The translations under genes and the position numbers were made by a program. From NCBI GenBank assembly GCA_000002435.2, contig CM018793.1: a stretch of 64,000 nt of DNA, one strand, 5' to 3'. The notes under the pieces were generated by a model. The model was not told where the DNA came from and searched no databases. It saw only the letters and a list, made by a program, of their open reading frames with translations. This document shows positions 8-20,460 of this stretch, in pieces; position 1 is the first letter of the stretch; the number at the start of each line of letters is the position of its first letter. The DNA is from Giardia intestinalis (lineage: Eukaryota).

Positions 8-607
8 TCAGGTAAAGCGTATCTGGCAGGTTTCCATCGCCCTGGCCCTGCAGTAGGGGCATTTGGCGTCTACACGCATTAGCAGCTCCGCGCAGGAGCT
101 GCAGACGCACAGATGCCCGCAGGGGACGAAGGCGTGCGTGCTCTGCTTATCTAAGCAGACGCAGCACTCCCCGTCGGGCAGCTGCACCCTCTTGACGGCT
201 TTGGGGCGGCGGCGGCGTAGGGCGGCTTGCTGTCTCCTGATTATCGTTTGAGCCTTGGCTAAATCGAAACCAAGGCTTCTCGCTGCCCCTTCCGCCCTAT
301 CAAGCTGCTCGTAGAGCTCAGATAGGGCGGTCCCCGCCGTTGTGTATTTGGCCAGGCGCTGCTCTAAAGAGCACTTCTCTTTCCTGGCCTGCGCGCGCTC
401 TGCCCAAAGCTTTTCGCGGAGCCTCTTCACTTTGAGGCCCCGACGCTTCGCCTGGCTGCTCGCCATTGCGAGCAGCTCTTCGGCCGATCGGAGGAGGTCC
501 AGCTCGTCCACCGTAGTGGAATCGAGCTGGAAATCCTCGTCCGGCGTTTGTGGGAAGCCCACAAAGCCGGGGAAGCCGATCATGCAGTCAAAAGGCGGAG
601 TAGTCAT
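8..607 (-). CDS. Coiled-coil protein with C-terminal RING-HC finger (E3 ubiquitin-ligase-like).
   Basis: C-terminus 'CCVCLDKQSTHAFVPCGHLCVCSSCAELLMRVDAKCPYCRA' fits the C3HC4 RING pattern (LRSAM1/IAP-like tail). AT-rich sequence is immediately upstream of the ATG at 607. AGTGAAT overlaps the stop at the window edge. Confidence 0.6.
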   Translation of the reverse strand: MTTPPFDCMIGFPGFVGFPQTPDEDFQLDSTTVDELDLLRSAEELLAMASSQAKRRGLKVKRLREKLWAERAQARKEKCSLEQRLAKYTTAGTALSELYEQLDRAEGAARSLGFDLAKAQTIIRRQQAALRRRRPKAVKRVQLPDGECCVCLDKQSTHAFVPCGHLCVCSSCAELLMRVDAKCPYCRARAMETCQIRFT

Positions 608-1675: not shown

Positions 1676-1775
1676 CGCCCTTTTTCTTTCCCGTCCGCAG
1701 AAGCCGATTTGAAGTGGTTTGCAACACATATGTTGCTTGGCCGTTCTGCAACACATATGCTGCCGCGAATAAATA

Positions 1776-4205
1776 ATGACGCGGCGCATCCAGTGCGGAG
1801 GCTCCAGCCTCGAGATCGACCCGCTGACCGGCGAGCTCTCCTTCGAGGACTTCCTGAACACGGCAGAGCCGCCCGAGCAGGACCCGATGCCCGTCCCGAA
1901 GATCGACGTCGGAGGATCGCTGGAGATACTTAACAGCCCGATTGTCGAGGCTATCTTCGGCGACGTCCTTGATAAGCTAGATCTTTTCAAGAAAGATGTC
2001 GACGCGTTCATTGCGATGCTCAAGCAGAAGACGAAGAACGCGATCAATTGGGGGTTAGCGTTAGTCGGCGTGACGACTGTCTCGGGCCTCATGGTCGTCA
2101 TGGTGAGAGAGATCACCATGGCCATCAAGCGCTGGCAGCGAACGAGAGAGTATCAGGACAGTCAGCAGCCAGAAGCCCAGCCGAAGATGATCTCCAAGGA
2201 GAACATGGAGAAGAAGGACGAGATCAGCGAGATTAGCGGCGAAGATGTGGAACCGCCGAGTCTCGGGGAGTACGAGGAGCAGGTGTATGACGAGAACGGC
2301 AACGCCATGTTGAATCCTGACGGCTCGCCGTTGACAAAGACAGTCGTTATCCCCCTCGATCGGGACATCTCCGACCAGTACGACCCAATTCCCGAACCCG
2401 ATGACATCTCAGAAGAGGAAGAGGAGATAGAAGAGGACGAAGTGGAAGAGGAGCCGCCCATCAAGATAACTGATGAGCTGATCAGCGATATCTTCTGGGA
2501 GTTCGACAAGCAGCCCATCCTCAACGAAGAGAACTTCGAGTTCCTCTACGACAGCGGCGTTTACATCATTCACATCCCCCACGTATATATGAAGCGTACA
2601 TGCAAGTTGGGCGGCGACTATGCGGCCTATCCCTGCAAGATGATCGAAAGCATCATCGGACCTGCCTTATGGGACAGATACGGCCATACATTCAAACTGC
2701 GCTTTCCAAACTGCTCACATCAAGTATCTGGTCCCATGGGCACTGAAATCTGTTGTAAGTGTCATATGAATGATTCAGTTCATTGGAGGATACGCGTAAT
2801 ACCGGACGATCAGCCTATATGGTATAACAACGACTGCACGTGCGGCGCTAATTGCAGTTGTCGTTGCCATACCAAGACTCCAGAGAGCGTCTTCACCGTA
2901 ACATACAATTGCGTTTTTTGGTGTGTTCCCTGTGCCACAAGATGTATCTATACCCAGTACGAATCTGACTGTTGGACTCATTACAATTTTTCCACGGATC
3001 GGGGCTTTAGATCAGAAAGTGTCGCCGATAGTAACGGTTTTAGTTCTGCATATATAATACCCGCAGGTAAAAAAATCATACGTTATGAGAGCGAAAACAA
3101 GAACTACCCATATAACTCGCGCGAGTGCTGTGACTTCTGCAAGGTGATGAAGAATTACTTTTACGAAACCGAGGGCTACAAGCTGCACCGCACCAACACA
3201 GAGGTCTACATCTTCTTCTCCCGCGGCGAGAACTCGACAATCTTCGAGAAATGCAACGACCTCTTCAATGGCTATGTGTCCCAGAAGATCCACGACCTTC
3301 TTTCAGACTGGGACGCTGGCAACAATAAGATCATGAATCGACTCAGCATCGACTGTAAGTGCGATGTGAAGCGGCCGCGCTGCACGGACGTCTTCCGAGG
3401 CCTGGGAGAGGTCCATGCTGATACCGTTGGTTTCCTAAAAGGCCATGCCCAGAAGGTCAAATGGATATACCTCCCCGACTACGATTCAAATCTCGGCTTG
3501 CCTTGGTGGTATGACGACCCGCACGACTACCAATCGATCTCGAAGGTCTGCGCATTCGAGGGCTTCCTCGAGCGCAACATCCCCGAGCACGTCATCCGCT
3601 TCTACTCTTACCGCAGACTCACAGACAAGAAGTGGTTCGGGAACCTCTACAAGCAGATCTGCGATGCGATACTCTTGGATTACCCAGACATGCCTGCGGG
3701 CATTGGGGCTGCTGCGCAGAAGTGGAAGGACTTCAACGCATGGAAAGGCATTGATAAGATGCTCAGCGACGTCGTTCCGGTTAAACAGATATATCCCGAA
3801 CAGGTTTATCCTGAGACGCGGCTCTTCACTAGCAAGCCGGCCAACTGGAACCAGCTGAAGCAGCGCGGCGCGAGTTGGACCGGCGAAGTAGAGCCAGAGC
3901 TCGCGTCCTTCAAGCGCTACCTCGACCTCCTCAACAAGTACTACCCGGGCTGGTGGGAGTTCCGGGAGACGCAGGAGCTCGGCTGGTGGGACAATTTCTG
4001 GACCCAGATACCCGACCTCAGGGACCTTGAGCGGACCTCCATCTTCTACTACGAGGACCTCACCATTGACGAGACCCACTATGAGATATACGGCGAACCT
4101 CCTTGGTGGCGCAGTTTCTGGGGGCCGACGATACGAGACAAGGCGCCCGACCCGGAGAGGCCGCGCACATACGAGGAAACAGTTGAAGTGGCAAGTCGAT
4201 ATTAG
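1776..4205 (+). CDS. Hypothetical 809-aa protein with one predicted TM helix (aa about 90-115), an acidic tract and a Cys/Trp-rich C-terminal domain.
   Basis: Start 'aataaataATG'. Stop sits inside AGTGAAT. Hydrophobic 'WGLALVGVTTVSGLMVVMV', acidic 'ISEEEEEIEEDEVEEE', and Cys clusters 'CTCGANCSCRCH' and 'CVFWCVPCATRC'. Composition is mosaic: AT-richer 2560-3130. Confidence 0.6.
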   Translation: MTRRIQCGGSSLEIDPLTGELSFEDFLNTAEPPEQDPMPVPKIDVGGSLEILNSPIVEAIFGDVLDKLDLFKKDVDAFIAMLKQKTKNAINWGLALVGVTTVSGLMVVMVREITMAIKRWQRTREYQDSQQPEAQPKMISKENMEKKDEISEISGEDVEPPSLGEYEEQVYDENGNAMLNPDGSPLTKTVVIPLDRDISDQYDPIPEPDDISEEEEEIEEDEVEEEPPIKITDELISDIFWEFDKQPILNEENFEFLYDSGVYIIHIPHVYMKRTCKLGGDYAAYPCKMIESIIGPALWDRYGHTFKLRFPNCSHQVSGPMGTEICCKCHMNDSVHWRIRVIPDDQPIWYNNDCTCGANCSCRCHTKTPESVFTVTYNCVFWCVPCATRCIYTQYESDCWTHYNFSTDRGFRSESVADSNGFSSAYIIPAGKKIIRYESENKNYPYNSRECCDFCKVMKNYFYETEGYKLHRTNTEVYIFFSRGENSTIFEKCNDLFNGYVSQKIHDLLSDWDAGNNKIMNRLSIDCKCDVKRPRCTDVFRGLGEVHADTVGFLKGHAQKVKWIYLPDYDSNLGLPWWYDDPHDYQSISKVCAFEGFLERNIPEHVIRFYSYRRLTDKKWFGNLYKQICDAILLDYPDMPAGIGAAAQKWKDFNAWKGIDKMLSDVVPVKQIYPEQVYPETRLFTSKPANWNQLKQRGASWTGEVEPELASFKRYLDLLNKYYPGWWEFRETQELGWWDNFWTQIPDLRDLERTSIFYYEDLTIDETHYEIYGEPPWWRSFWGPTIRDKAPDPERPRTYEETVEVASRY

Positions 4206-4213
4206 TGAATTTA

Positions 4214-7090
4214 CTAATAACTGATGTTTATAGCCGGGTTCTTTGCCCAGTACCAGATCTTCACCCGGTTACCTGAGCCAAGGGATCTCGAATTCGACCA
4301 TGTTAATCGTAGGTTAATGTACGAATCGCTAGTATAGTCCGACCACGAGACTATGATTGTGTCATATGTACTAACGCGACAATCATACGCCTGGATCGAG
4401 ACAATGTCGTCATTGGATCTGCTCTGCATGTCGCTCGGAAAGTCCGCGAGATTCAGTCGCATGAACCCGTTGCCGTCGGTCGTCTGACTCGGCACAAAGC
4501 TCTTCAGCAGACACGGCGTCTTGAGGGCGTTGCATATCCGCTCTGAGTAGCTGCACAGCGTCTCACAGTCAGTAATCCGGCTCAGCTGATTAGAGAGCTG
4601 AGAGGTGTTCTGAGCGATAGAAGCCAGAGCACCCGTGATCTTACCAGCTTGCTGACTGACGTTGTTCGAGATGACCTGCACCTGGTTGTAGAGCTGGTTA
4701 TAACAACTAATGTGCGAGTTCAGAGACGATTGGACACCGCTAATGCGATTCGTGTTCCCTAAGACAGAGTCCCAAATGCCGCGCTCATTCGACTCAAGCG
4801 CATTGATGCGAGTCTCCAGAGCAGGCACATTTCCAACATTGCCATCAAGACGAGTAAGGCTCTCTCGAATCTCGCTGATGCTCTGGTCGACTGCTGTCAT
4901 GTGGCGGTCATGTGCATCTAAGGCGTCCTGCGTAGAGTCTCTCAAGCTCTCTAGTCGACCGTTTATCTCTCTCGCTGAATTGTTAACTGCATCGATAGTA
5001 GTCGCGAACTCTGTCGTTGTCCTCTCTAACGAACCTATCTTCACCTCAGATGCTTCCACTGTCCTGCTCATCCGAGACAGCGATGAAGAGAAGGCTGCAT
5101 TGTCTGTCTCAAAGACGCCTACCTTTTCAGCGAGCCTTCGGATGATCTCGTCCTGTGCAGCAAGGCGTTCTTCAAAAGCGCTTGCCTTTGCGCGCTCCTC
5201 TTCTAACTGTCTCTCAAGAGAGTCGATACGCGCTGCCGTTAATTGAGCGCCCACCTTTGCCTCGACCTTCTGCTGGTCGATGAGCTCTCTGAGATAGTTG
5301 TACGCGCCCTCGAGGTCTCTCTTGATCGTCATAGCATCGATCAGACCTCCCTCGAAGTCGGGAACTGAGATGTCGTTCCGCTCAAAGAACTGTGCGACAA
5401 TGGTCATCAGAATCTCCATGCGGTTCCGGAACTCCATGAGACTGTCCTGGTTACCCTCGAGCACGCTCACGCGGTCCTTCGTTTCATCTAACTGAACGCG
5501 GTCATCGTCAGTGTGACTCGTCAAGTCCCGAATACGCTCTTCAGCTCGCTTTACTTCCAAATGGGTCAAGGTCATATCATCGTTTATGTGTGAGAACTCA
5601 TCCCAAATGAACTGGAAGCGTTTATAAAGATCATCAGTCAGAAACTTGTATATCTTGCCGAACTTATAGTCATGCTGGTCGAGGCGGTACTTCGCTTCCA
5701 CTGCATATGTAAGGGCTACCGCAGCGACGACGCCAAGACACGCGTCTATCACATATCCGGTAATCAAGTTAATCAGATTCAGCTTCCGGAAAAGACCGCC
5801 CCCTGCGGCGATAATAGTATCAAACTCGCCGAGCTTATCCTTCATCAGATCTTCCTTCGTGAACGTCTTCTTCTTGATGAGATCGATCTGGCCCTCGGCG
5901 CGCTTGATGCGAGCCTCTAGAGTCTTCCGCTGCTTCTCGAGACGGTTGATCTTTGAATCGGCTTTCATTGCGTGCTTAGCAAGATAACGCGTTTGATGTG
6001 AGATGCGTCCCTTGCTAAGCTTCTTGAGACTCTTAATGGCTGTAACGTTACCGCCGATCTTGTAGTACTTTCCGAGGTGCTTGCGAAGACCATTGTCCTC
6101 GTCGCCGTCCTCATCGAAGCCCTGAAGCTGTCGATAGAGCCACATTGTCTGCTGGTTGAGCGAGGCGGCCATGAAGTCTGCACGAGACACGCGACCATCG
6201 GGAGAGAGCTTCTGATTGCTGCGACCAGCAAGCGACCCGCCGACCATCTGATAGATATACTGGATCTGCTCGATGACCGGTTGGCTCTTCAAATCGTCTT
6301 CGCTAATAGCGCCCGTCACGCCCTTGATGGAGATATCAGCATCTCTTGCAGCTCGCAGCCCAAACGTCTCAGGCTTCTTTATCTTACGTGGCTTCTTCGG
6401 CTCCTTTGGCTTCCTCTCCTTCTTGAGCTTCTTCTTCTTATCTGTAAGCGGCAGAAGGTCCTCCCGAAAAGCATAGTTGCCCCTTACCATCCACGTGACA
6501 GCAAGGATCTTCTGAACAATCGTCAGGTCGCGCAAATAGTCGAGCTTGTTCGGCGCATTCATATAGTCCTCCGGCTGGAAGTTGTTGTTGAAGCCGACCA
6601 TTGGGACCGACTTGACCTTCGGCTTCGAGAGAGTCTGCCCGGTTAGAGACATCGTATAGAGATCCGCAGGCACAGTCTTGAAGCCCAGTATCTCCTCCAT
6701 GAACTTCACTAGAAACGCTAGACACGGACCCTTCACCGGAGACTCTCCGTCGAAGGCATTGCCGTTCCAGTTCTTGATTTCATAGTTCTCATGATTACAA
6801 TAGTACTTGATGCACTTCTTTCGCTGAGCGGGGTCAAGAAGCTGCACGGCGCAGTGTATTGTCTTCCCGCCAAAGTACCCCGATATGCAGTGAGTCTTGC
6901 TGAGATTCAGGTTAGACCCAAACAGAGCTTTGCGTTCGTCAGGCACTAAGGCACACTGCATCACGTAGTCTTTGATGAGGTTATAATGATACGATGAGAG
7001 TGCGCTGACCTTATCTGCGAACGACTGCATCGACTCTGTCGTCATGAAGACGCCGTCGAGCTGCTCCCTGCGGATGATGAGGTTGTTCAT
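4214..7090 (-). CDS. Hypothetical 958-aa protein with a central TM-like segment, a long heptad / coiled-coil stalk and a beta-rich C-terminal domain of about 100 aa.
   Basis: Start is preceded (minus strand) by 'ggggaaaataaataATG'. Shares a palindromic AGTGAATTTACT 3' signal with the convergent 809-aa gene. Ser/Leu heptads span aa about 640-860. No family recognised. Confidence 0.6.
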   Translation of the reverse strand: MNNLIIRREQLDGVFMTTESMQSFADKVSALSSYHYNLIKDYVMQCALVPDERKALFGSNLNLSKTHCISGYFGGKTIHCAVQLLDPAQRKKCIKYYCNHENYEIKNWNGNAFDGESPVKGPCLAFLVKFMEEILGFKTVPADLYTMSLTGQTLSKPKVKSVPMVGFNNNFQPEDYMNAPNKLDYLRDLTIVQKILAVTWMVRGNYAFREDLLPLTDKKKKLKKERKPKEPKKPRKIKKPETFGLRAARDADISIKGVTGAISEDDLKSQPVIEQIQYIYQMVGGSLAGRSNQKLSPDGRVSRADFMAASLNQQTMWLYRQLQGFDEDGDEDNGLRKHLGKYYKIGGNVTAIKSLKKLSKGRISHQTRYLAKHAMKADSKINRLEKQRKTLEARIKRAEGQIDLIKKKTFTKEDLMKDKLGEFDTIIAAGGGLFRKLNLINLITGYVIDACLGVVAAVALTYAVEAKYRLDQHDYKFGKIYKFLTDDLYKRFQFIWDEFSHINDDMTLTHLEVKRAEERIRDLTSHTDDDRVQLDETKDRVSVLEGNQDSLMEFRNRMEILMTIVAQFFERNDISVPDFEGGLIDAMTIKRDLEGAYNYLRELIDQQKVEAKVGAQLTAARIDSLERQLEEERAKASAFEERLAAQDEIIRRLAEKVGVFETDNAAFSSSLSRMSRTVEASEVKIGSLERTTTEFATTIDAVNNSAREINGRLESLRDSTQDALDAHDRHMTAVDQSISEIRESLTRLDGNVGNVPALETRINALESNERGIWDSVLGNTNRISGVQSSLNSHISCYNQLYNQVQVISNNVSQQAGKITGALASIAQNTSQLSNQLSRITDCETLCSYSERICNALKTPCLLKSFVPSQTTDGNGFMRLNLADFPSDMQSRSNDDIVSIQAYDCRVSTYDTIIVSWSDYTSDSYINLRLTWSNSRSLGSGNRVKIWYWAKNPAINISY

Positions 7091-7104
7091 TATTTATTTT
7101 CCCC

Positions 7105-7159
7105 ACTCACACCAACCATTTGAAAGTGGAATCTGTTCTGAGAAAATAAAATGACGTAA
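7105..7159 (+). promoter_or_regulatory. Cassette-specific promoter module ahead of polB-A: 'ccaaccatttgaaagtggaatctgttctgagaaaataaaATGacgtaaATG'.
   Basis: The same module (aaaccatt..gaattc..ggaaaataaaATG) recurs at 11825-11867, 18318-18365, 20705-20746 and, in minus orientation, at 13680-13745 and 21099-21175. It contains a 2-codon uORF (ATG ACG TAA) abutting the polB ATG. Confidence 0.45.
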
Positions 7160-10100
7160 ATGGCAACCACTAGGGAACTCCTGACCATGCATCCCCAGCA
7201 GATGTCCGAGGACCAGCTCGCCCAGCTCAAGACGTCGCTCGAGACGCTCAACTACACCCAGCTCCGACAATACGTGCTCGGCCGCGTCAAGCCCCTCATC
7301 GAGAACGTCCGCAAGCACATCCAGGAGGACCCCGTCGGCTCGGTAGATCAAGTCCTCGACTTCCAGGACGGCTTCTGGTCCAAGGACCTGATCCAGCGCG
7401 TCCGCTGGAACCTCGCCCAGTTCAGGGTAAACGAGAAGAACCCCCGCAGAGTGCCGACCAGCAGAGCGAAGGAGGCGCTGGAGCTGAACTACATGACCGA
7501 CTACTCCTTCCGGCGCATCGTCTACCCGATCGTCGCAGACCTCGCCAAGGCTCTTTATCTCCGCGCAGAGGAAGCTAACCGCCGCAACACCGACGCTTCG
7601 GTGCGCTATGTCCCGCTTCTTGTCATGTTCAACCAGCAGAACACGTTCGGCTATCCGCCCCGCGTCGCCTTCCTCGTGACGCCTGCCGTCATCACGTTCC
7701 TCCGCGGATGGAAGGTCTTCGCCGACGGAGACGACGCCCACCAGCACTACCTCAACGCGGTCACGAGGGACGCGGCGCAGATCCACGGCGTCCAGTCCGC
7801 AGAGCCTGGCGAGATGCTCTACTGCTTCAACTGGGACCCCATTTTCGCCGGCACAGAGAGCGACCCCGAGAACCCCCGCAACGCCATGTTCTCCTTCGGG
7901 ACGATGTACGAGCCCGTCTTCATCTTCCAGATCCAGATCATCCGCACCAGAGAGGGCCAGCGGAAGCTCATCCACCGCAGGGGAGGTATGGCGCCCTTCA
8001 CGAACGACTCGTTCTTCGACCTCACGCGCTACCAGATCGAGAAGACAGGCGAGGGCTTCAAGAACAGCAAGGACACGTGTTTCCTCTACGCCCTCAAGCA
8101 GAGCGGCGTGCTGAGCGACGACGAGATACGGGCCGCCGCCTTCCACATCAACCAGGCCTCTGTCACCTTCGCGATGATCGACGCCATCGGCAAGCAGCTC
8201 TTCGTCTGCTTCCACATGCACATGGCAGACAGGGTCGTCCTCAAGGGCGCGCAGAAGAACCGCAAGGTTCCGCCGGGCGTCGCGATCCGGAACATCCACC
8301 TGGGCTTCGACTTCAACCACTACTACATCTTCGACGAGAAGCTCCCCTACAGCAAGACGTACGTGAACAACGCAGCCGTCATGATGGAGCACCACACATA
8401 CCCCGCGAACACGAACCTGCGCGAGGTCAACGTCAGAGACACCTTCCACCCGCAGACCAGGGAGCCGACGAAGAAGGTCGTCTTCGGCTACCACCGCGAC
8501 GACGACCCCCATACATGCTCGAGTCGGGACCTCATCCTCTCGCTCCACAAGCAGGGCCTCCTCAAGCCCATCCGCTCCGACAGCCTGCTGGCCATCAAGG
8601 AGTCCTTCATCCGCGAAGAGCACTACGAGGAGGACGCGCTCAACTACTGCGAGGACCAGCTGAAGGAGATCACGCCGAAGAAGAAGACCCAGTCGCCCAA
8701 GGACGTCTGGTTCGCAGACTTCGAGACGACGACCGACGGGGACCAGCACCACCCGTTCCTCCTCTGCTTCCACGGGATCAACAACGTCACGGGGACGTAC
8801 TGGGCGAAGGACTACAACAGCATCGGGGACATGGTCCGAGCGGCCTTCAACCGCCTCGCGATGCTCAACCGGCCCCAGCTGGTGTACTTCCACAACCTCA
8901 ACTACGACGGGGCCTTCGTCCTCCCGTACTTCGACGTCAAGAAGGACAGCATCGTCACCCTCGGGGCGAGCAAGATCATCGCGTTCACGATCCATGTCCG
9001 GCTGAGCGACGACCGGAAGAACAAGCCGATCCCGATCCACTTCCGGGACTCCTACGCCCTGATCACGGCTCCCCTCAGCAAGTTCGGCAAGATGTTCAAC
9101 CTCAACGTGCACAAGGAGGTCCTCCCGTACTCGTTCTACACCCAGGACAACGTCAAGAAGCTGTGCCAGGGCTTCAAGCCGACGCTCGAGGAGTACCTCT
9201 CGTACGAGATCGAGAGCAGGAGGGAGGAGCTCGAGCAGCTGCTCCGTACGCTGCCGGAGATGCTGGTAATAGACAGGGTCGACGCCTTCAAGTACGCCCA
9301 CTACTACTGCGCAAGAGACTGCCACGTGCTCAAGGACGGGGTGATGGGCTTCAGACGCCAGCTCCTCGAGGTCACGGGCATCGACGCCTTCACATCCATG
9401 ACGCTCCCGAGCATTGCCTACAACTTCCTCATCAACGAGAAGTGCTTCGAGGGCTGCTTCAACCTCAACACGGCGCCGCTCCTCTTCGTACGCCAGTGCG
9501 TGACGGGCGGGCGCTGCATGCTCCGGTGCAACGAGAAGCAGTACGTCGAGGGCGAGGTCATGGACTTCGACGCCGTCTCGCTGTATCCGTCTGCCATGGC
9601 GCGCCTCCACACCCTCATGGGCCACCCGAAGATCGTCGACCCCGAGAAGCACGACCTCGGCTGGCTCCTCCGGCAGGACGGCTGCTTCCTCGAGATCGAC
9701 ATCGAGGTCGTCCCGAAGCAGCTCGACTTCCCCCTCATCAACAGGCAGACGGAGAAGGGGAGGCACTTCTCGAACGAGCCGGGCCCGATGTTCGCCGACA
9801 ACATCACGATCGAGGACATCATCGAGTACCACAAGGTCCCGATGAACCGGATCAGGGTCCTCCGGGGCTACTACTACGACGAGGGCAAGAACACGAACAT
9901 CCAGGCCGTCATCCGGAAGATCTTCGAAGCGCGGCTCAAGTTCAAGGCGGAGGGCAACCCGCTCGAGAGCATCTACAAGCTCATCATGAACAGCTGCTAC
10001 GGGAAGAGCATCCTCAAGCCCGTCTACAAGCGGATGAACACGGTCGACCACGCGGGCCTTGAGAGAGAGCTCCTCGACAACTCGGCCGATGTCCTCTGCT

Positions 10101-18621: not shown

Positions 18622-19272
18622 TTACTTCGAGATCTCCTCGAGGAAGCGAGCGAACGTGCCCGGCTCGGTCGAGGCGTTGAGGAAGCACTGGATGCCCTCT
18701 GCCCACTGCAGCGCCTGCTCGTCGGTGAGGCACGGACTTGTCGCCGTGTACGAGCGCTTGAACTTCGGGAGCCGCGACAGCCTCACTAACTCCTCCCCGG
18801 TCTCCTCTAAGAGGTAGAAGGCAGAGCGCACTCCATCTGATGCTCGCCTGCAGAAGGCGGTGTAGTGGGGCGCGCGCACGAACTCGTCCTCGGGCCTCTT
18901 GACGAAGCGGAAGATGACCCCGAGCTGGTTGAGCCACTGGCAGAACCAGGCCGTGACTCGCTCGTAGTCCTCCGTGCCCTCGGCGCAGTCGGCAGTAATG
19001 CGGCCCAGTAGTCTTCCCACCTGGCCACAGAAGCTCTTGAAGGGCGGGCCGGCGCGGGCGGATGTCTGCTGTGCGGGCTCGGGGTGCGAAGTCTGCTGAA
19101 CGGGGTCGGGGTCGGCGTGCGCTCGAGCCTTGAGGGGGCTTCGCTTGCGAGAGGATCCTCGAGGAGGGAGGGCGATGTCTTGCGTGAAGAGGTCCTCGGT
19201 GTAATGCTCAGGAATGATGCCATCTGCCATGCGTCCTTTTATTTTCTTGACGCTCCTATCATAAAGACGCAA
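18622..19272 (-). CDS. Hypothetical 216-aa Cys-containing protein, copy B.
   Basis: Start 'gaaaataaaaggacgcATG'. Shares the AGTAAATGTTTACT 3' palindrome with the small basic gene. Confidence 0.55.
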   Translation of the reverse strand: MRLYDRSVKKIKGRMADGIIPEHYTEDLFTQDIALPPRGSSRKRSPLKARAHADPDPVQQTSHPEPAQQTSARAGPPFKSFCGQVGRLLGRITADCAEGTEDYERVTAWFCQWLNQLGVIFRFVKRPEDEFVRAPHYTAFCRRASDGVRSAFYLLEETGEELVRLSRLPKFKRSYTATSPCLTDEQALQWAEGIQCFLNASTEPGTFARFLEEISK

Positions 19273-19789: not shown

Positions 19790-20230
19790 CTGCGCTCCTC
19801 GGTCATGCGAATCAATTCCCGAATCAGAATCAAATCAAAATCAATTCGTCACAATTAATTGCACGAGGGGTCTCACAGGGCTCAGAAAAAAAAAATTACG
19901 CTGACCTGCCGGGCTGTCTGTATGTCGCACCTCGGTGTCGTGCGGGCCCGACAGGCTGGCTGGCTGGCCGGCAGCTGAACTGAGCCTCGAACGTACCACA
20001 CCCACAACGCGTCTCCTCCCGGCGTGCACAGTTCACGCTGGGCGGTTCCGGGGGGAGGCGCGTTTTTTTTAGAAAAATTACAGGTTTTTTATTCTATCAA
20101 AAATCATAATGTTTGGACGGGAGATTGCAGCAGGGAGAACAAAATCGCGGCGGTCGTTTTCGTTTTTTTGGGTAAGGCCCCCGGCCGGCCCAAAAAAACG
20201 AAAGCGGGCGCCTCGAGGATATATACTACT
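19790..20230. repeat. Conserved inter-unit spacer, copy B (includes hairpin 20155..20206 and the 'atatatactact' junction).
   Basis: Colinear with 13700..14157. Confidence 0.7.
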
Positions 20231-20339
20231 GGCGTGCTCCCTGTAGAGGTGATCGCGCTCTCTACGTTGATCGAGCACGATATTGTACAACTTCTTCACT
20301 TTGAGGTTGCGGCGCCTTATTTGGGTTCTAGCTCGTTCA

Positions 20340-20460
20340 AAGAGCTCCCCGTCGGTTCTAACAGGCCCCAGCTCGTCCACTTCCACAGCCTCAACTACGA
20401 CGGGGCTTTCATCCTTCGACATCAAGGAGGACTCCATCGTCACCGCACGAGGCACCCCGC
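20340..20460 (+). pseudogene. Third, highly degraded polB fragment (ExoII region 'NRPQLVHFHSLNYDGAFIL').
   Basis: Nucleotide similarity to 8866-8960 of polB-A with indels. Embedded in the non-genic ORF 20024..20743. Confidence 0.4.

What the first reader, a model, noticed from the sequence alone, without database searches (positions are those of the whole stretch)
7160..8700. 510-aa N-terminal extension on the protein-primed polymerase: possible terminal-protein fusion
The phi29-type ExoI motif (DFETTTDG) only begins at residue about 517. The preceding 510 aa have no recognisable motifs. TP-DNAP fusions of similar size occur in fungal and plant linear plasmids. A fused priming domain would make the polymerase self-sufficient for protein-primed initiation.
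Basis: inference. Interest (0 to 1): 0.75.

Follow-up and report, generated by a model that had tools for sequence, protein, structure and literature searches.

The report
Priming-domain plus protease extension on polymerase
The long front end of this virus-like DNA polymerase in a Giardia-type genome contains an OTU-type cysteine protease, preceded by a probable DNA-priming "terminal protein" domain; this layout was already described in 2024 for Polinton/Maverick polymerases, so this is a new member of a known kind.

Summary
ORF 7160-10756 (+) encodes a 1198-aa protein-primed family B polymerase. Its ExoI motif DFET starts at residue 520, so about 516 residues lie upstream with no Pfam hit.

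Residues 1-276 form a helical region plus an alpha/beta domain. That domain ends in a conserved G-x-x-S-D loop (Ser234), one strand, a basic linker and an invariant Gly within RRGG (273-276).

This matches the TP-vOTU-Exo-Pol architecture published for polinton, virophage and cytoplasmic-plasmid polymerases (Krupovic et al., PNAS 2024). The protease part is shown at fold level. The terminal-protein part is inferred from position, motifs and selection, because its fold could not be confirmed.

Copy B breaks at codon 173/174, inside the putative TP domain. The break sits at the edge of a repeated hairpin-bearing element, so it is not a domain boundary.

The fitting model is the polinton/pGKL type, not the kalilo type. 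New member of a known kind; moderate-to-low interest.

The parts
7160..10756 (+). Complete 1198-aa TP-vOTU-Exo-Pol protein-primed family B DNA polymerase gene (copy A), including the stop codon
   Evidence: ORF list; PF03175 E 5e-37; all Exo I-III, A, B, C and KxY motifs intact; full-length homologues at 54-98% identity
7160..7594 (+). aa 1-145: N-terminal alpha-helical region, basic (pI 9.25), specific to the Giardia-type family. Function unknown; may be an accessory part of the terminal protein.
   Evidence: AF2 helices 4-9, 17-29, 32-56, 75-87 and 116-142 with pLDDT 76-90 over aa 1-90; aa 91-113 disordered. pI. No remote homologues cover this part.
7595..7945 (+). aa 146-262: alpha/beta domain, the putative terminal-protein (D1) domain
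   Evidence: AF2 strands 148-157, 168-172, 222-224 and 253-262, and helices 175-183 and 190-209; confidence is medium to low. It has the lowest dN/dS of all segments, 0.28. It sits immediately upstream of the vOTU, as in PMC11161782.
7859..7861 (+). Ser234 codon: candidate DNA-linking (priming) residue in the loop 'AGTESDPENP'
   Evidence: The S-D column is conserved in >=70% of 15 diverse D1 segments. A G-S-D-type motif lies 40-56 aa upstream of the DLxRYQI anchor in 18 of 24 relatives, and is replaced by Tyr-Asp in P0033. It lies in an unstructured loop before the last strand, with Gly231 and Pro236 nearby, as the paper describes for linking residues. Inference only.
7946..7987 (+). aa 263-276: flexible basic linker 'TREGQRKLIHRRGG'. 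RRGG (7976-7987) is the predicted vOTU cleavage site, which would release a 32-kDa TP.
   Evidence: pLDDT <50 for aa 263-275. Gly275 is invariant in 18 sequences. The pattern is (R/K)-x-G-(G/S/A) in most relatives. The 1-276 fragment is 32.1 kDa. Cleavage itself is inferred.
7988..8500 (+). aa 277-447: OTU-like cysteine protease (vOTU/D2) domain; catalytic Cys307 (8078-8080) and His387 (8318-8320)
8501..8707 (+). aa 448-516: conserved helical connector between the protease and the exonuclease domain
   Evidence: AF2 helices 455-464 and 476-482. phmmer alignments to P0023 and P0033 extend to aa 509. Highest dN/dS of the segments, 0.49.
8708..10753 (+). aa 517-1198: 3'-5' exonuclease plus polymerase core of the phi29/polinton type
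   Evidence: ExoI 518, ExoII 578, ExoIII 716, motif A 804, motif B 940, motif C 1035, KxY 1094; PF03175
14160..17229 (+). Copy B: a degenerate second copy of the polymerase, lacking aa 1-172 and frameshifted around aa 545-610. It retains the vOTU Cys and His.
   Evidence: tblastn; direct repeats D2, D3 and D7; alignment A1
13900..14164 (+). Repeated hairpin-bearing element whose 3' end abuts codon 173/174 of copy B. A second copy lies at ~20000-20234.
   Evidence: The Giardia WB fragment P0003 ends at the same codon and then reads through the reverse complement of this element (plus a hand translation of the sequence shown).

Best explanation
The 516-aa extension is the N-terminal module of a Polinton/Maverick-type protein-primed polymerase. 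It consists of a lineage-specific helical region (aa 1-145), a terminal-protein-like alpha/beta domain (aa ~146-262), a flexible basic linker ending in RRGG (263-276), an active OTU-type cysteine protease (aa ~277-447; Cys307, His387) and a connector to the exonuclease domain.

Proposed mechanism:
1. The polymerase attaches the first dNMP to a hydroxyl residue of its own TP domain. The best candidate is Ser234, in the conserved G-x-x-S-D loop.
2. That primes replication from the end of a linear element.
3. During or after the switch to elongation, the OTU protease cuts the polypeptide at or near RRGG|MAPF.
4. A ~32-kDa TP stays on the 5' DNA end and a ~107-kDa vOTU-polymerase is freed.

What is shown: the domain layout, the OTU fold, the invariant Cys/His pair, the conserved motifs, purifying selection, and the polymerase motifs. 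What is inferred: the TP identity of aa 146-262, Ser234 as the linking residue, the cleavage site, and the order of events.
For: Polymerase core:
- PF03175 at E 5e-37, and all catalytic motifs are intact.

Relatives of the extension:
- An exhaustive phmmer search with aa 1-516 found remote matches (E 1e-8 to 8e-4) only to aa ~250-410. The eight long matches (710-1260 aa) scanned against Pfam all carry PF03175 downstream of the matched stretch.
- Gly275, Leu288, Cys307 and His387 are invariant in 18 sequences that are only 17-22% identical outside the Giardia group.
- The Cys and His motifs are present in all 24 relatives examined.

Structure:
- The AF2 model from the 18-sequence alignment has mean pLDDT 71.8, and 80-94 over aa 277-480.
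- Foldseek: Hokovirus OTU at prob 1.00, tymovirus polyproteins at 0.98-0.99, TYMV PRO/DUB at 0.96-0.97.
- Cys307 starts a helix and His387 starts a strand, the OTU catalytic geometry described in PMC11161782.

Support for the TP reading:
- The S-D loop motif is conserved, with Tyr replacing Ser in one relative.
- That loop is followed by a strand, a basic low-confidence linker and the invariant Gly.
- dN/dS is 0.28 for the D1 segment and 0.36 for the whole extension, against 0.32 for Exo+Pol.
- The predicted TP fragment is 32 kDa. pGKL1's TP is 26 kDa and is cleaved between TP and vOTU (PMC11161782).
- The paper states that active vOTU domains go with fused TPs and inactivated ones with separate TPs.

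Element context:
- A relative at 55% identity (L001) sits beside a Pox_A32-type packaging ATPase (26.9 bits, cutoff 22.8) and a weak rve integrase hit. That is a Polinton-type element.
Against: - The TP fold was not confirmed. pLDDT is <50 for aa 201-248.
- The modelled order of strands and helices does not clearly reproduce the beta-alpha-beta-beta-alpha-beta little-finger topology.
- About 20 Foldseek hits to human pol eta, a Y-family polymerase, have probability of only 0.07-0.16, and the aligned region is unknown.
- hhalign of the D1 alignment against PRD1 P8 gave probability 0.2%.
- P1 of the proposed cleavage motif is Asn in P0014/P0015 and Arg in P0032.
- The scissile bond would lie only ~4 residues before the first strand of the protease, which makes cis cleavage geometrically awkward.
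- In this window the element is partial and duplicated. No integrase, ATPase or terminal inverted repeats were found in the window.
Confidence: 0.7

Rival explanations
1. The extension contains a real OTU-type protease or deubiquitinase, but the upstream 276 aa are not a terminal protein. They would be a lineage-specific DNA-binding, localisation or host-interaction module. The OTU would act on host ubiquitin or ISG-like conjugates, or process other element proteins. Priming would use a separately encoded TP or another mechanism.
For: The D1 fold is unconfirmed and low-confidence. There is no structural or profile match to known TPs. aa 1-145 have no relatives outside the Giardia-type family. 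Viral OTUs are known deubiquitinases (PMC11161782).
Against: The same order of S-D loop, strand, basic linker, Gly-Gly and OTU is conserved in very distant pPolBs. According to the paper, lineages with a separate TP (adenoviruses) have inactivated vOTUs, whereas the dyad is intact here. The D1 segment is the most constrained part of the extension. None of the small ORFs syntenic with the polymerase matched any Pfam family at the thresholds used, so no candidate separate TP stands out.
Confidence: 0.17
2. TP fusion without release. The domain primes, but the whole 139-kDa protein stays attached to the DNA, as in kalilo-type plasmids and bidnaviruses. The OTU domain would be structural or would serve only as a deubiquitinase.
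For: The proposed scissile bond lies very close to the protease core. P1 is not always small.
Against: According to the paper, non-cleaving lineages either lack D2 or have lost the catalytic residues. Here Cys307 and His387 are invariant and the linker Gly is conserved across distant relatives.
Confidence: 0.08
3. The extension is an artefact: a read-through or mis-called start that fuses an unrelated upstream ORF, or a decaying pseudogene, to the polymerase. Alternatively, it is simply an enlarged exonuclease N-terminus.
For: The region is rearranged and duplicated, and copy B is a pseudogene. Very high GC3 also produces a long spurious antisense ORF.
Against: Eleven homologues of 1148-1202 aa from independent assemblies keep the same start and length. 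dN/dS is 0.36. The OTU domain is confidently folded and separate from the exonuclease. Distant pPolBs share the same upstream domain.
Confidence: 0.03

Closest known systems
TP-vOTU-Exo-Pol pPolBs of polintons/Mavericks, mavirus-like virophages and adintoviruses (Krupovic, Kuhn, Fischer, Koonin, PNAS 2024; PMC11161782)
   Same: The order of modules is the same. An OTU-fold protease with Cys in a helix start and His in a strand lies directly upstream of ExoI. An alpha/beta domain lies upstream of that, with a hydroxyl residue in a loop before its last strand and Gly/Pro nearby, followed by an unstructured linker. The catalytic dyad is intact. A relative's element carries an A32-type ATPase and a weak rve integrase hit.
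   Different: There is an extra ~145-aa helical region at the extreme N-terminus, found only in the Giardia-type family. The D1 fold is not verified here. Sequence identity to other family members is <=22% in the extension. The host is a diplomonad-type genome. The window holds only a partial, tandemly duplicated element.
Cytoplasmic linear plasmid polymerases (pGKL1/pGKL2 of Kluyveromyces lactis)
   Same: [quoted passage not shown] The released TP is of similar size: 26 kDa in pGKL1 (PMC11161782) against 32 kDa predicted here.
   Different: Those are plasmids of fungal cytoplasm with no capsid genes. No detectable sequence similarity was tested or found here.
   Same: The N-terminal priming region is fused to a pPolB of similar overall size.
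   Different: According to PMC11161782 these lack the vOTU domain (kalilo has an unrelated beta-rich DX domain), and the whole polymerase stays on the DNA. Here an apparently active vOTU is present.
Entamoeba histolytica Polinton-derived family B2 polymerases (Pastor-Palacios et al. 2012; PMC3511435)
   Same: A protist-parasite genome encodes pPolBs of 813-1279 aa with an N-terminal part of no recognised homology, which was proposed to act as a TP. Canonical Polinton partner genes are missing nearby.
   Different: No direct comparison was made here. The Entamoeba work characterised only the shortest enzyme biochemically.
Cellular and viral OTU deubiquitinases/proteases (OTUD1-3, yeast Otu1/Otu2, nairovirus OTU, tymovirus PRO/DUB)
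   Different: There is no Pfam OTU match for any member, and 6-16% identity in the structural alignments. The domain is embedded in a DNA polymerase rather than an RNA-virus polyprotein or a cellular DUB.

Membership tests
Polinton-type TP-vOTU-pPolB (PMC11161782) | Protein-primed family B polymerase core with Exo I-III, motifs A, B, C and KxY | tested here: met
   PF03175 E 5e-37. Motifs at aa 518, 578, 716, 804, 940, 1035 and 1094. The TPR1/TPR2 insertions were not examined separately.
Polinton-type TP-vOTU-pPolB (PMC11161782) | D2: an OTU-fold domain immediately upstream of the exonuclease domain | tested here: met
Polinton-type TP-vOTU-pPolB (PMC11161782) | Catalytic Cys (helix alpha1) and His (strand beta4) conserved, meaning an active protease | tested here: met
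   Cys307 at the start of helix 307-315 and His387 at the start of strand 387-390. Invariant in 18 aligned sequences and present in all 24 relatives examined. Enzymatic activity was not tested.
Polinton-type TP-vOTU-pPolB (PMC11161782) | D1: PRD1-TP / LF-PAD-like fold (four-stranded sheet plus two helices) upstream of vOTU | tested here: inconclusive
Polinton-type TP-vOTU-pPolB (PMC11161782) | Ser/Tyr linking residue in an unstructured loop before the last D1 strand, with Gly/Pro nearby | tested here: met
   Ser234 lies in 'AGTESDP' within the low-confidence loop 227-248, before strand 253-262. The S-D column is >=70% conserved, with Tyr in one relative. Covalent linkage is not testable with these tools.
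Polinton-type TP-vOTU-pPolB (PMC11161782) | Unstructured linker between the TP and the rest of the protein | tested here: met
   aa 263-275 have pLDDT <50, and the sequence is basic: TREGQRKLIHRRGG.
Polinton/Maverick element | Companion genes (rve integrase, FtsK/A32 packaging ATPase, jelly-roll capsid proteins, Ulp1-like protease) and terminal inverted repeats | tested here: inconclusive
   Relative L001 has Pox_A32 at 26.9 bits (cutoff 22.8) and rve at E 0.0018, below its cutoff. In the window itself no homologue of these was found, and there are no inverted repeats of >=60 nt. Capsid and protease genes were not identified.
Kalilo-type mitochondrial plasmid TP-DNAP fusion | TP fused to pPolB without a vOTU domain, with the whole protein remaining DNA-bound | tested here: not met
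   A vOTU domain with an intact dyad is present. The definition is taken from PMC11161782.
OTU superfamily as defined by sequence (Pfam OTU models) | Significant match to a Pfam OTU-type profile | tested here: not met
   No OTU family appears at E<=1 for any of the 18 N-terminal regions. Membership rests on fold and catalytic residues only.
phi29-type terminal protein | Separate, elongated all-alpha TP | tested here: not met
   No phi29 TP hit appears in the PDB searches, and the candidate priming region is alpha/beta and fused. The N-terminal helical region aa 1-145 was not specifically compared.

The most novel reading that the evidence does not exclude
Three things the evidence does not exclude go beyond the 2024 description.

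(1) The invariant Gly in a conserved (R/K)-x-G-(G/S/A) motif directly upstream of the OTU domain is the ubiquitin-tail-like self-cleavage site that releases the terminal protein. The G-S-D loop serine about 40 residues upstream would be the universal priming residue of this large polymerase group. Both would be directly testable by mutagenesis.

(2) Giardia-type parasites carry a so far undescribed, recently active Maverick-like virus lineage. It has intact polymerases at 54-98% identity in independent assemblies.

(3) Its copies insert into each other's polymerase gene at one specific codon (173/174).
Probability: 0.35. Interest if true: 0.5.

Novelty: new member of a known kind. Interest (0 to 1): 0.33.

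Why it matters
This extends the TP-vOTU-polymerase architecture to a diplomonad (Giardia-type) genome, with a family of intact relatives in metagenomes. It gives concrete residues to test: Ser234, RRGG 273-276, Cys307 and His387. For polinton-type polymerases, both the protease that frees the terminal protein and the priming residue have so far only been predicted. It also flags a virus-like mobile element in an important human and animal parasite. It does not reveal a new kind of system.

Tried and rejected
- Pfam on aa 1-513 (E<=0.1) and on all 18 N-terminal regions (E<=1): no relevant family.
- phmmer and a profile search against PDB sequences: only the phi29 polymerase for the core, plus a spurious tRNA methyltransferase hit for the extension.
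- First AF2 run with a six-sequence Giardia-only alignment: unusable, mean pLDDT 40.9.
- Word-indexed homologue search with the N-terminus alone, and again with profile A2: only four Giardia fragments. The second search was wasted.
- afdb50 fold library: unavailable.
- hhalign of the D1 alignment against the PRD1 terminal protein: probability 0.2%.
- Look-up of the Giardia WB fragment's contig, to check the insertion junction at DNA level: not on record.
- Search for an inverted copy of the junction repeat in the window and in the fetched loci: none.
- 'Copy B truncation marks a domain boundary': rejected. The break lies at the end of strand 168-172 inside the putative TP domain, and coincides with the end of a repeated element.
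- 'Integral exonuclease N-terminus' and 'annotation artefact': rejected.
Full report
**1. Observation**

The window carries an uninterrupted ORF at 7160-10756 (+) of 1198 aa. Pfam places the protein-primed family B polymerase model PF03175 on aa 569-974 (E 5e-37), and the only PDB sequence relative is the phi29 polymerase.

All catalytic motifs are intact:
- ExoI FADFET at aa 518 (Asp520)
- ExoII at 578
- ExoIII at 716
- motif A DAVSLYP at 804
- motif B KLIMNSCYG at 940
- motif C YTDTDS at 1035
- KxY at 1094

The extension is real coding sequence:
- Eleven homologues of 1148-1202 aa (54-98% identity) from independent ENA and Logan assemblies keep it.
- dN/dS against a 78%-identical homologue is 0.36 for aa 1-516 and 0.32 for Exo+Pol.
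- GC3 is uniformly very high along the ORF.

**2. Context**

The window looks like a Giardia-type chromosome:
- It has a variant-specific surface protein gene (PF03302, E 4e-56), an SF-assemblin/beta-giardin gene, and intron-free housekeeping genes.
- The only named homologues of the extension are Giardia duodenalis fragments.

Window 1720-12570 is syntenic with a 42.7-kb metagenomic contig, L002. The shared order is 809-aa ORF, 958-aa coiled-coil ORF, polymerase, deoxynucleoside kinase, 198-aa ORF.

A more distant relative, L001 (55% identity), sits in a densely coding 19.9-kb contig. That contig has a Pox_A32-type packaging ATPase (26.9 bits, above its cutoff) and a weak rve integrase match. 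The family therefore looks Polinton/Maverick-like.

In the window itself the element is partial. No ATPase or integrase homologue and no long inverted repeats were found. A ~6.5-kb unit is tandemly duplicated.

**3. What the extension is**

An exhaustive phmmer search with aa 1-516 found remote matches (E 1e-8 to 8e-4) only to aa ~250-410. The eight long matches (710-1260 aa) scanned against Pfam all carry PF03175 downstream of the matched stretch.

Alignment shows three conserved blocks:
- (R/K)xGGxFxPFxNxxxxDLxRYQI
- an invariant Cys in xCF(I/V)YAL
- an invariant His in (N/D)HYF(I/L)

Gly275, Leu288, Cys307 and His387 are invariant in 18 sequences that share only 17-22% identity with the query outside the Giardia group.

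With this 18-sequence alignment AlphaFold2 gave a usable model: mean pLDDT 71.8, and 80-94 over aa 277-480. A first run with six Giardia sequences had failed.

Fold searches point to an OTU domain:
- Foldseek gave its only high-probability matches to a Hokovirus OTU protein (prob 1.00), tymovirus polyproteins (0.98-0.99) and TYMV PRO/DUB (0.96-0.97), with weak E-values.
- Cys307 opens helix 307-315 and His387 opens strand 387-390, the OTU catalytic arrangement.

So aa ~277-447 are an OTU-like cysteine protease with an intact dyad.

**4. The upstream 276 residues**

The model shows a helical region (aa 1-145; pLDDT 76-90 for aa 1-90; basic), followed by an alpha/beta region. That region has strands 148-157, 168-172, 222-224 and 253-262, and helices 175-183 and 190-209. 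Confidence is low for aa 201-248 and for the linker 263-275.

Across very different polymerases the same linear pattern recurs:
- a G-S-D-type motif (G-x-x-S-D in the Giardia family, i.e. Ser234; Tyr-Asp in one relative)
- a hydrophobic strand
- a Lys/Arg-rich stretch
- the invariant Gly in (R/K)xG(G/S/A)
- the OTU domain

The D1 segment has the lowest dN/dS of the protein, 0.28.

**5. Comparison with the literature**

- an N-terminal D1 domain homologous to PRD1 and adenovirus terminal proteins. It has the little-finger/PAD fold, with the linking Ser or Tyr in a loop before the last strand, near a Gly or Pro.
- an unstructured linker.
- a vOTU protease (Cys in alpha1, His in beta4), proposed to cut the TP off.

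For pGKL1, the 26-kDa TP size fits cleavage between TP and vOTU. Lineages that keep the TP attached or encode it separately (kalilo-type plasmids, bidnaviruses, adenoviruses) lack the vOTU or have lost its catalytic residues.

Earlier work on Entamoeba Polinton-derived polymerases had already proposed a TP role for the unannotated N-terminus (PMC3511435). A Giardia intestinalis pPolB also appears in a published pPolB tree (PMC4642659).

The protein here matches this architecture in every feature I could test except the D1 fold, which remains unconfirmed:
- No PRD1 TP or adenovirus pTP match appeared in BFVD, and none in the PDB.
- There are only about 20 low-probability Foldseek hits to human pol eta, a Y-family polymerase.
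- hhalign against PRD1 P8 was negative.

**6. Mechanism (inferred)**

1. The fused TP domain presents Ser234 to the polymerase active site for attachment of the first nucleotide at a linear DNA end.
2. After initiation, the OTU protease cleaves at or near RRGG(273-276)|MAPF.
3. This leaves a 32.1-kDa TP on the DNA and a 106.6-kDa vOTU-polymerase.

The Gly-Gly/Gly-Ser/Gly-Ala pattern resembles the substrates of ubiquitin-directed OTUs and of tymovirus PRO (from my own knowledge). The paper does not mention such a motif.

Caveats: the bond is very close to the protease core, so cleavage may have to occur in trans. P1 is also Asn or Arg in a few relatives.

**7. Copy B**

tblastn shows that copy B (14160-17229) begins at codon ~173 and is frameshifted near aa 545-610. 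The break lies at the end of strand 168-172, inside the putative TP domain, so it is not a domain boundary.

It coincides with the 3' end (...GGATATATACTACTG) of a ~250-bp repeat that contains a near-perfect hairpin. A second copy of the repeat lies at ~20000-20234, followed by a third small polymerase fragment.

The Giardia WB protein fragment GL50803_0092663 stops matching the polymerase at the same codon. It then reads through the reverse complement of this repeat (one search compared). This suggests the two ends of an insertion into the polymerase gene at one site, possibly nested copies of the element. I could not obtain the WB DNA to verify it.

**8. Verdict**

The terminal-protein idea is partly supported and needs refining:
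- The extension is TP-like region + linker + active-looking OTU protease + connector.
- The right analogue is the polinton/pGKL type rather than the kalilo type.

This architecture is already published, so the finding is a new member of a known kind in a new host lineage. It offers useful, testable residue-level predictions.

Noticed in passing
window 7677-12416 vs 14160-18911: A ~6.5-kb tandem segmental duplication at 82-93% identity carries the polymerase, the deoxynucleoside kinase and a ~200-aa ORF. Copy B of the polymerase is frameshifted and 5'-truncated. Copy B is closer to the metagenomic relative L002 (81.6% nt) than copy A is (76.3%).
   Followed up: partly
window ~13900-14164 and ~20000-20234: A ~250-bp direct repeat has an internal near-perfect hairpin (CGTTTTCGTTTTTTTGGG...CCCAAAAAAACGAAAG) and a conserved end GGATATATACTACTG. 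The first copy ends exactly at codon 173/174 of polymerase copy B. The Giardia WB fragment GL50803_0092663 (P0003) breaks at the same codon and continues into the reverse complement of this repeat. This suggests an insertion, possibly nested element termini with a TGACGCC-like target duplication. No inverted copy occurs in the window or in loci L001-L004.
   Followed up: partly
window 20360-20444: A third, tiny polymerase fragment (aa 570-600, around ExoII) lies just downstream of the second copy of the repeat.
   Followed up: no
window 7160-10756 and 15274-17229 vs neighbours: The polymerase has extreme third-position GC (0.94 in copy A, 0.93 in copy B). Adjacent element genes have 0.65-0.73 and host-like genes 0.49-0.79. 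This bias also creates a spurious 1093-aa antisense ORF at 7094-10375 (-). The cause is unknown; codon selection or biased gene conversion among copies are possibilities.
   Followed up: partly
window 4214-7090 (-): A 958-aa protein has long coiled-coil segments and a beta-rich C-terminal end. It is divergently transcribed from the polymerase and is conserved in synteny in L002-L004, and partly in L001. Its shape is reminiscent of a fibre or spike protein, but this was not tested.
   Followed up: no
window 10763-11815 (-) and 17232-18377 (-): A deoxynucleoside kinase gene (PF01712, E 1.4e-15) lies next to the polymerase. It is conserved next to the polymerase in L002-L004 and elsewhere on the contig in L001, which is unusual cargo for a Polinton-type element.
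   Followed up: partly
L001 (ENA ERZ27287779 k141_64424) 5747-6694 (-) and 15182-16192 (-): The 55%-identical relative lies in a compact 19.9-kb contig with a Pox_A32-type packaging ATPase and a weak rve integrase hit. This suggests complete Maverick-like viral genomes of this lineage exist in metagenomes. Capsid genes were not identified.
   Followed up: partly
window 12840-13679 (-): An ankyrin-like repeat gene built of 93-nt (31-aa) units, five in-register copies, sits between the two duplicated units. It is not part of the duplicated block.
   Followed up: no
window 1-24000 vs 24000-64000: The left third of the window has higher G+C (0.55-0.63) than the rest (~0.50). From ~20.4 to 24 kb it contains only overlapping GC-biased ORFs with no clear genes. 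It looks like a decayed or foreign block next to ordinary host genes (TBCC, SF-assemblin, Gln/Glu-tRNA synthetase, proteasomal AAA ATPase, VSP).
   Followed up: no
window 8-607 (-): A 199-aa ORF ends in a C3HC4 RING-finger-like motif (CVCLD...CGHLCVCSSC...CPYCR) at the very left edge of the window. It is unclear whether it belongs to the host or the element.
   Followed up: no
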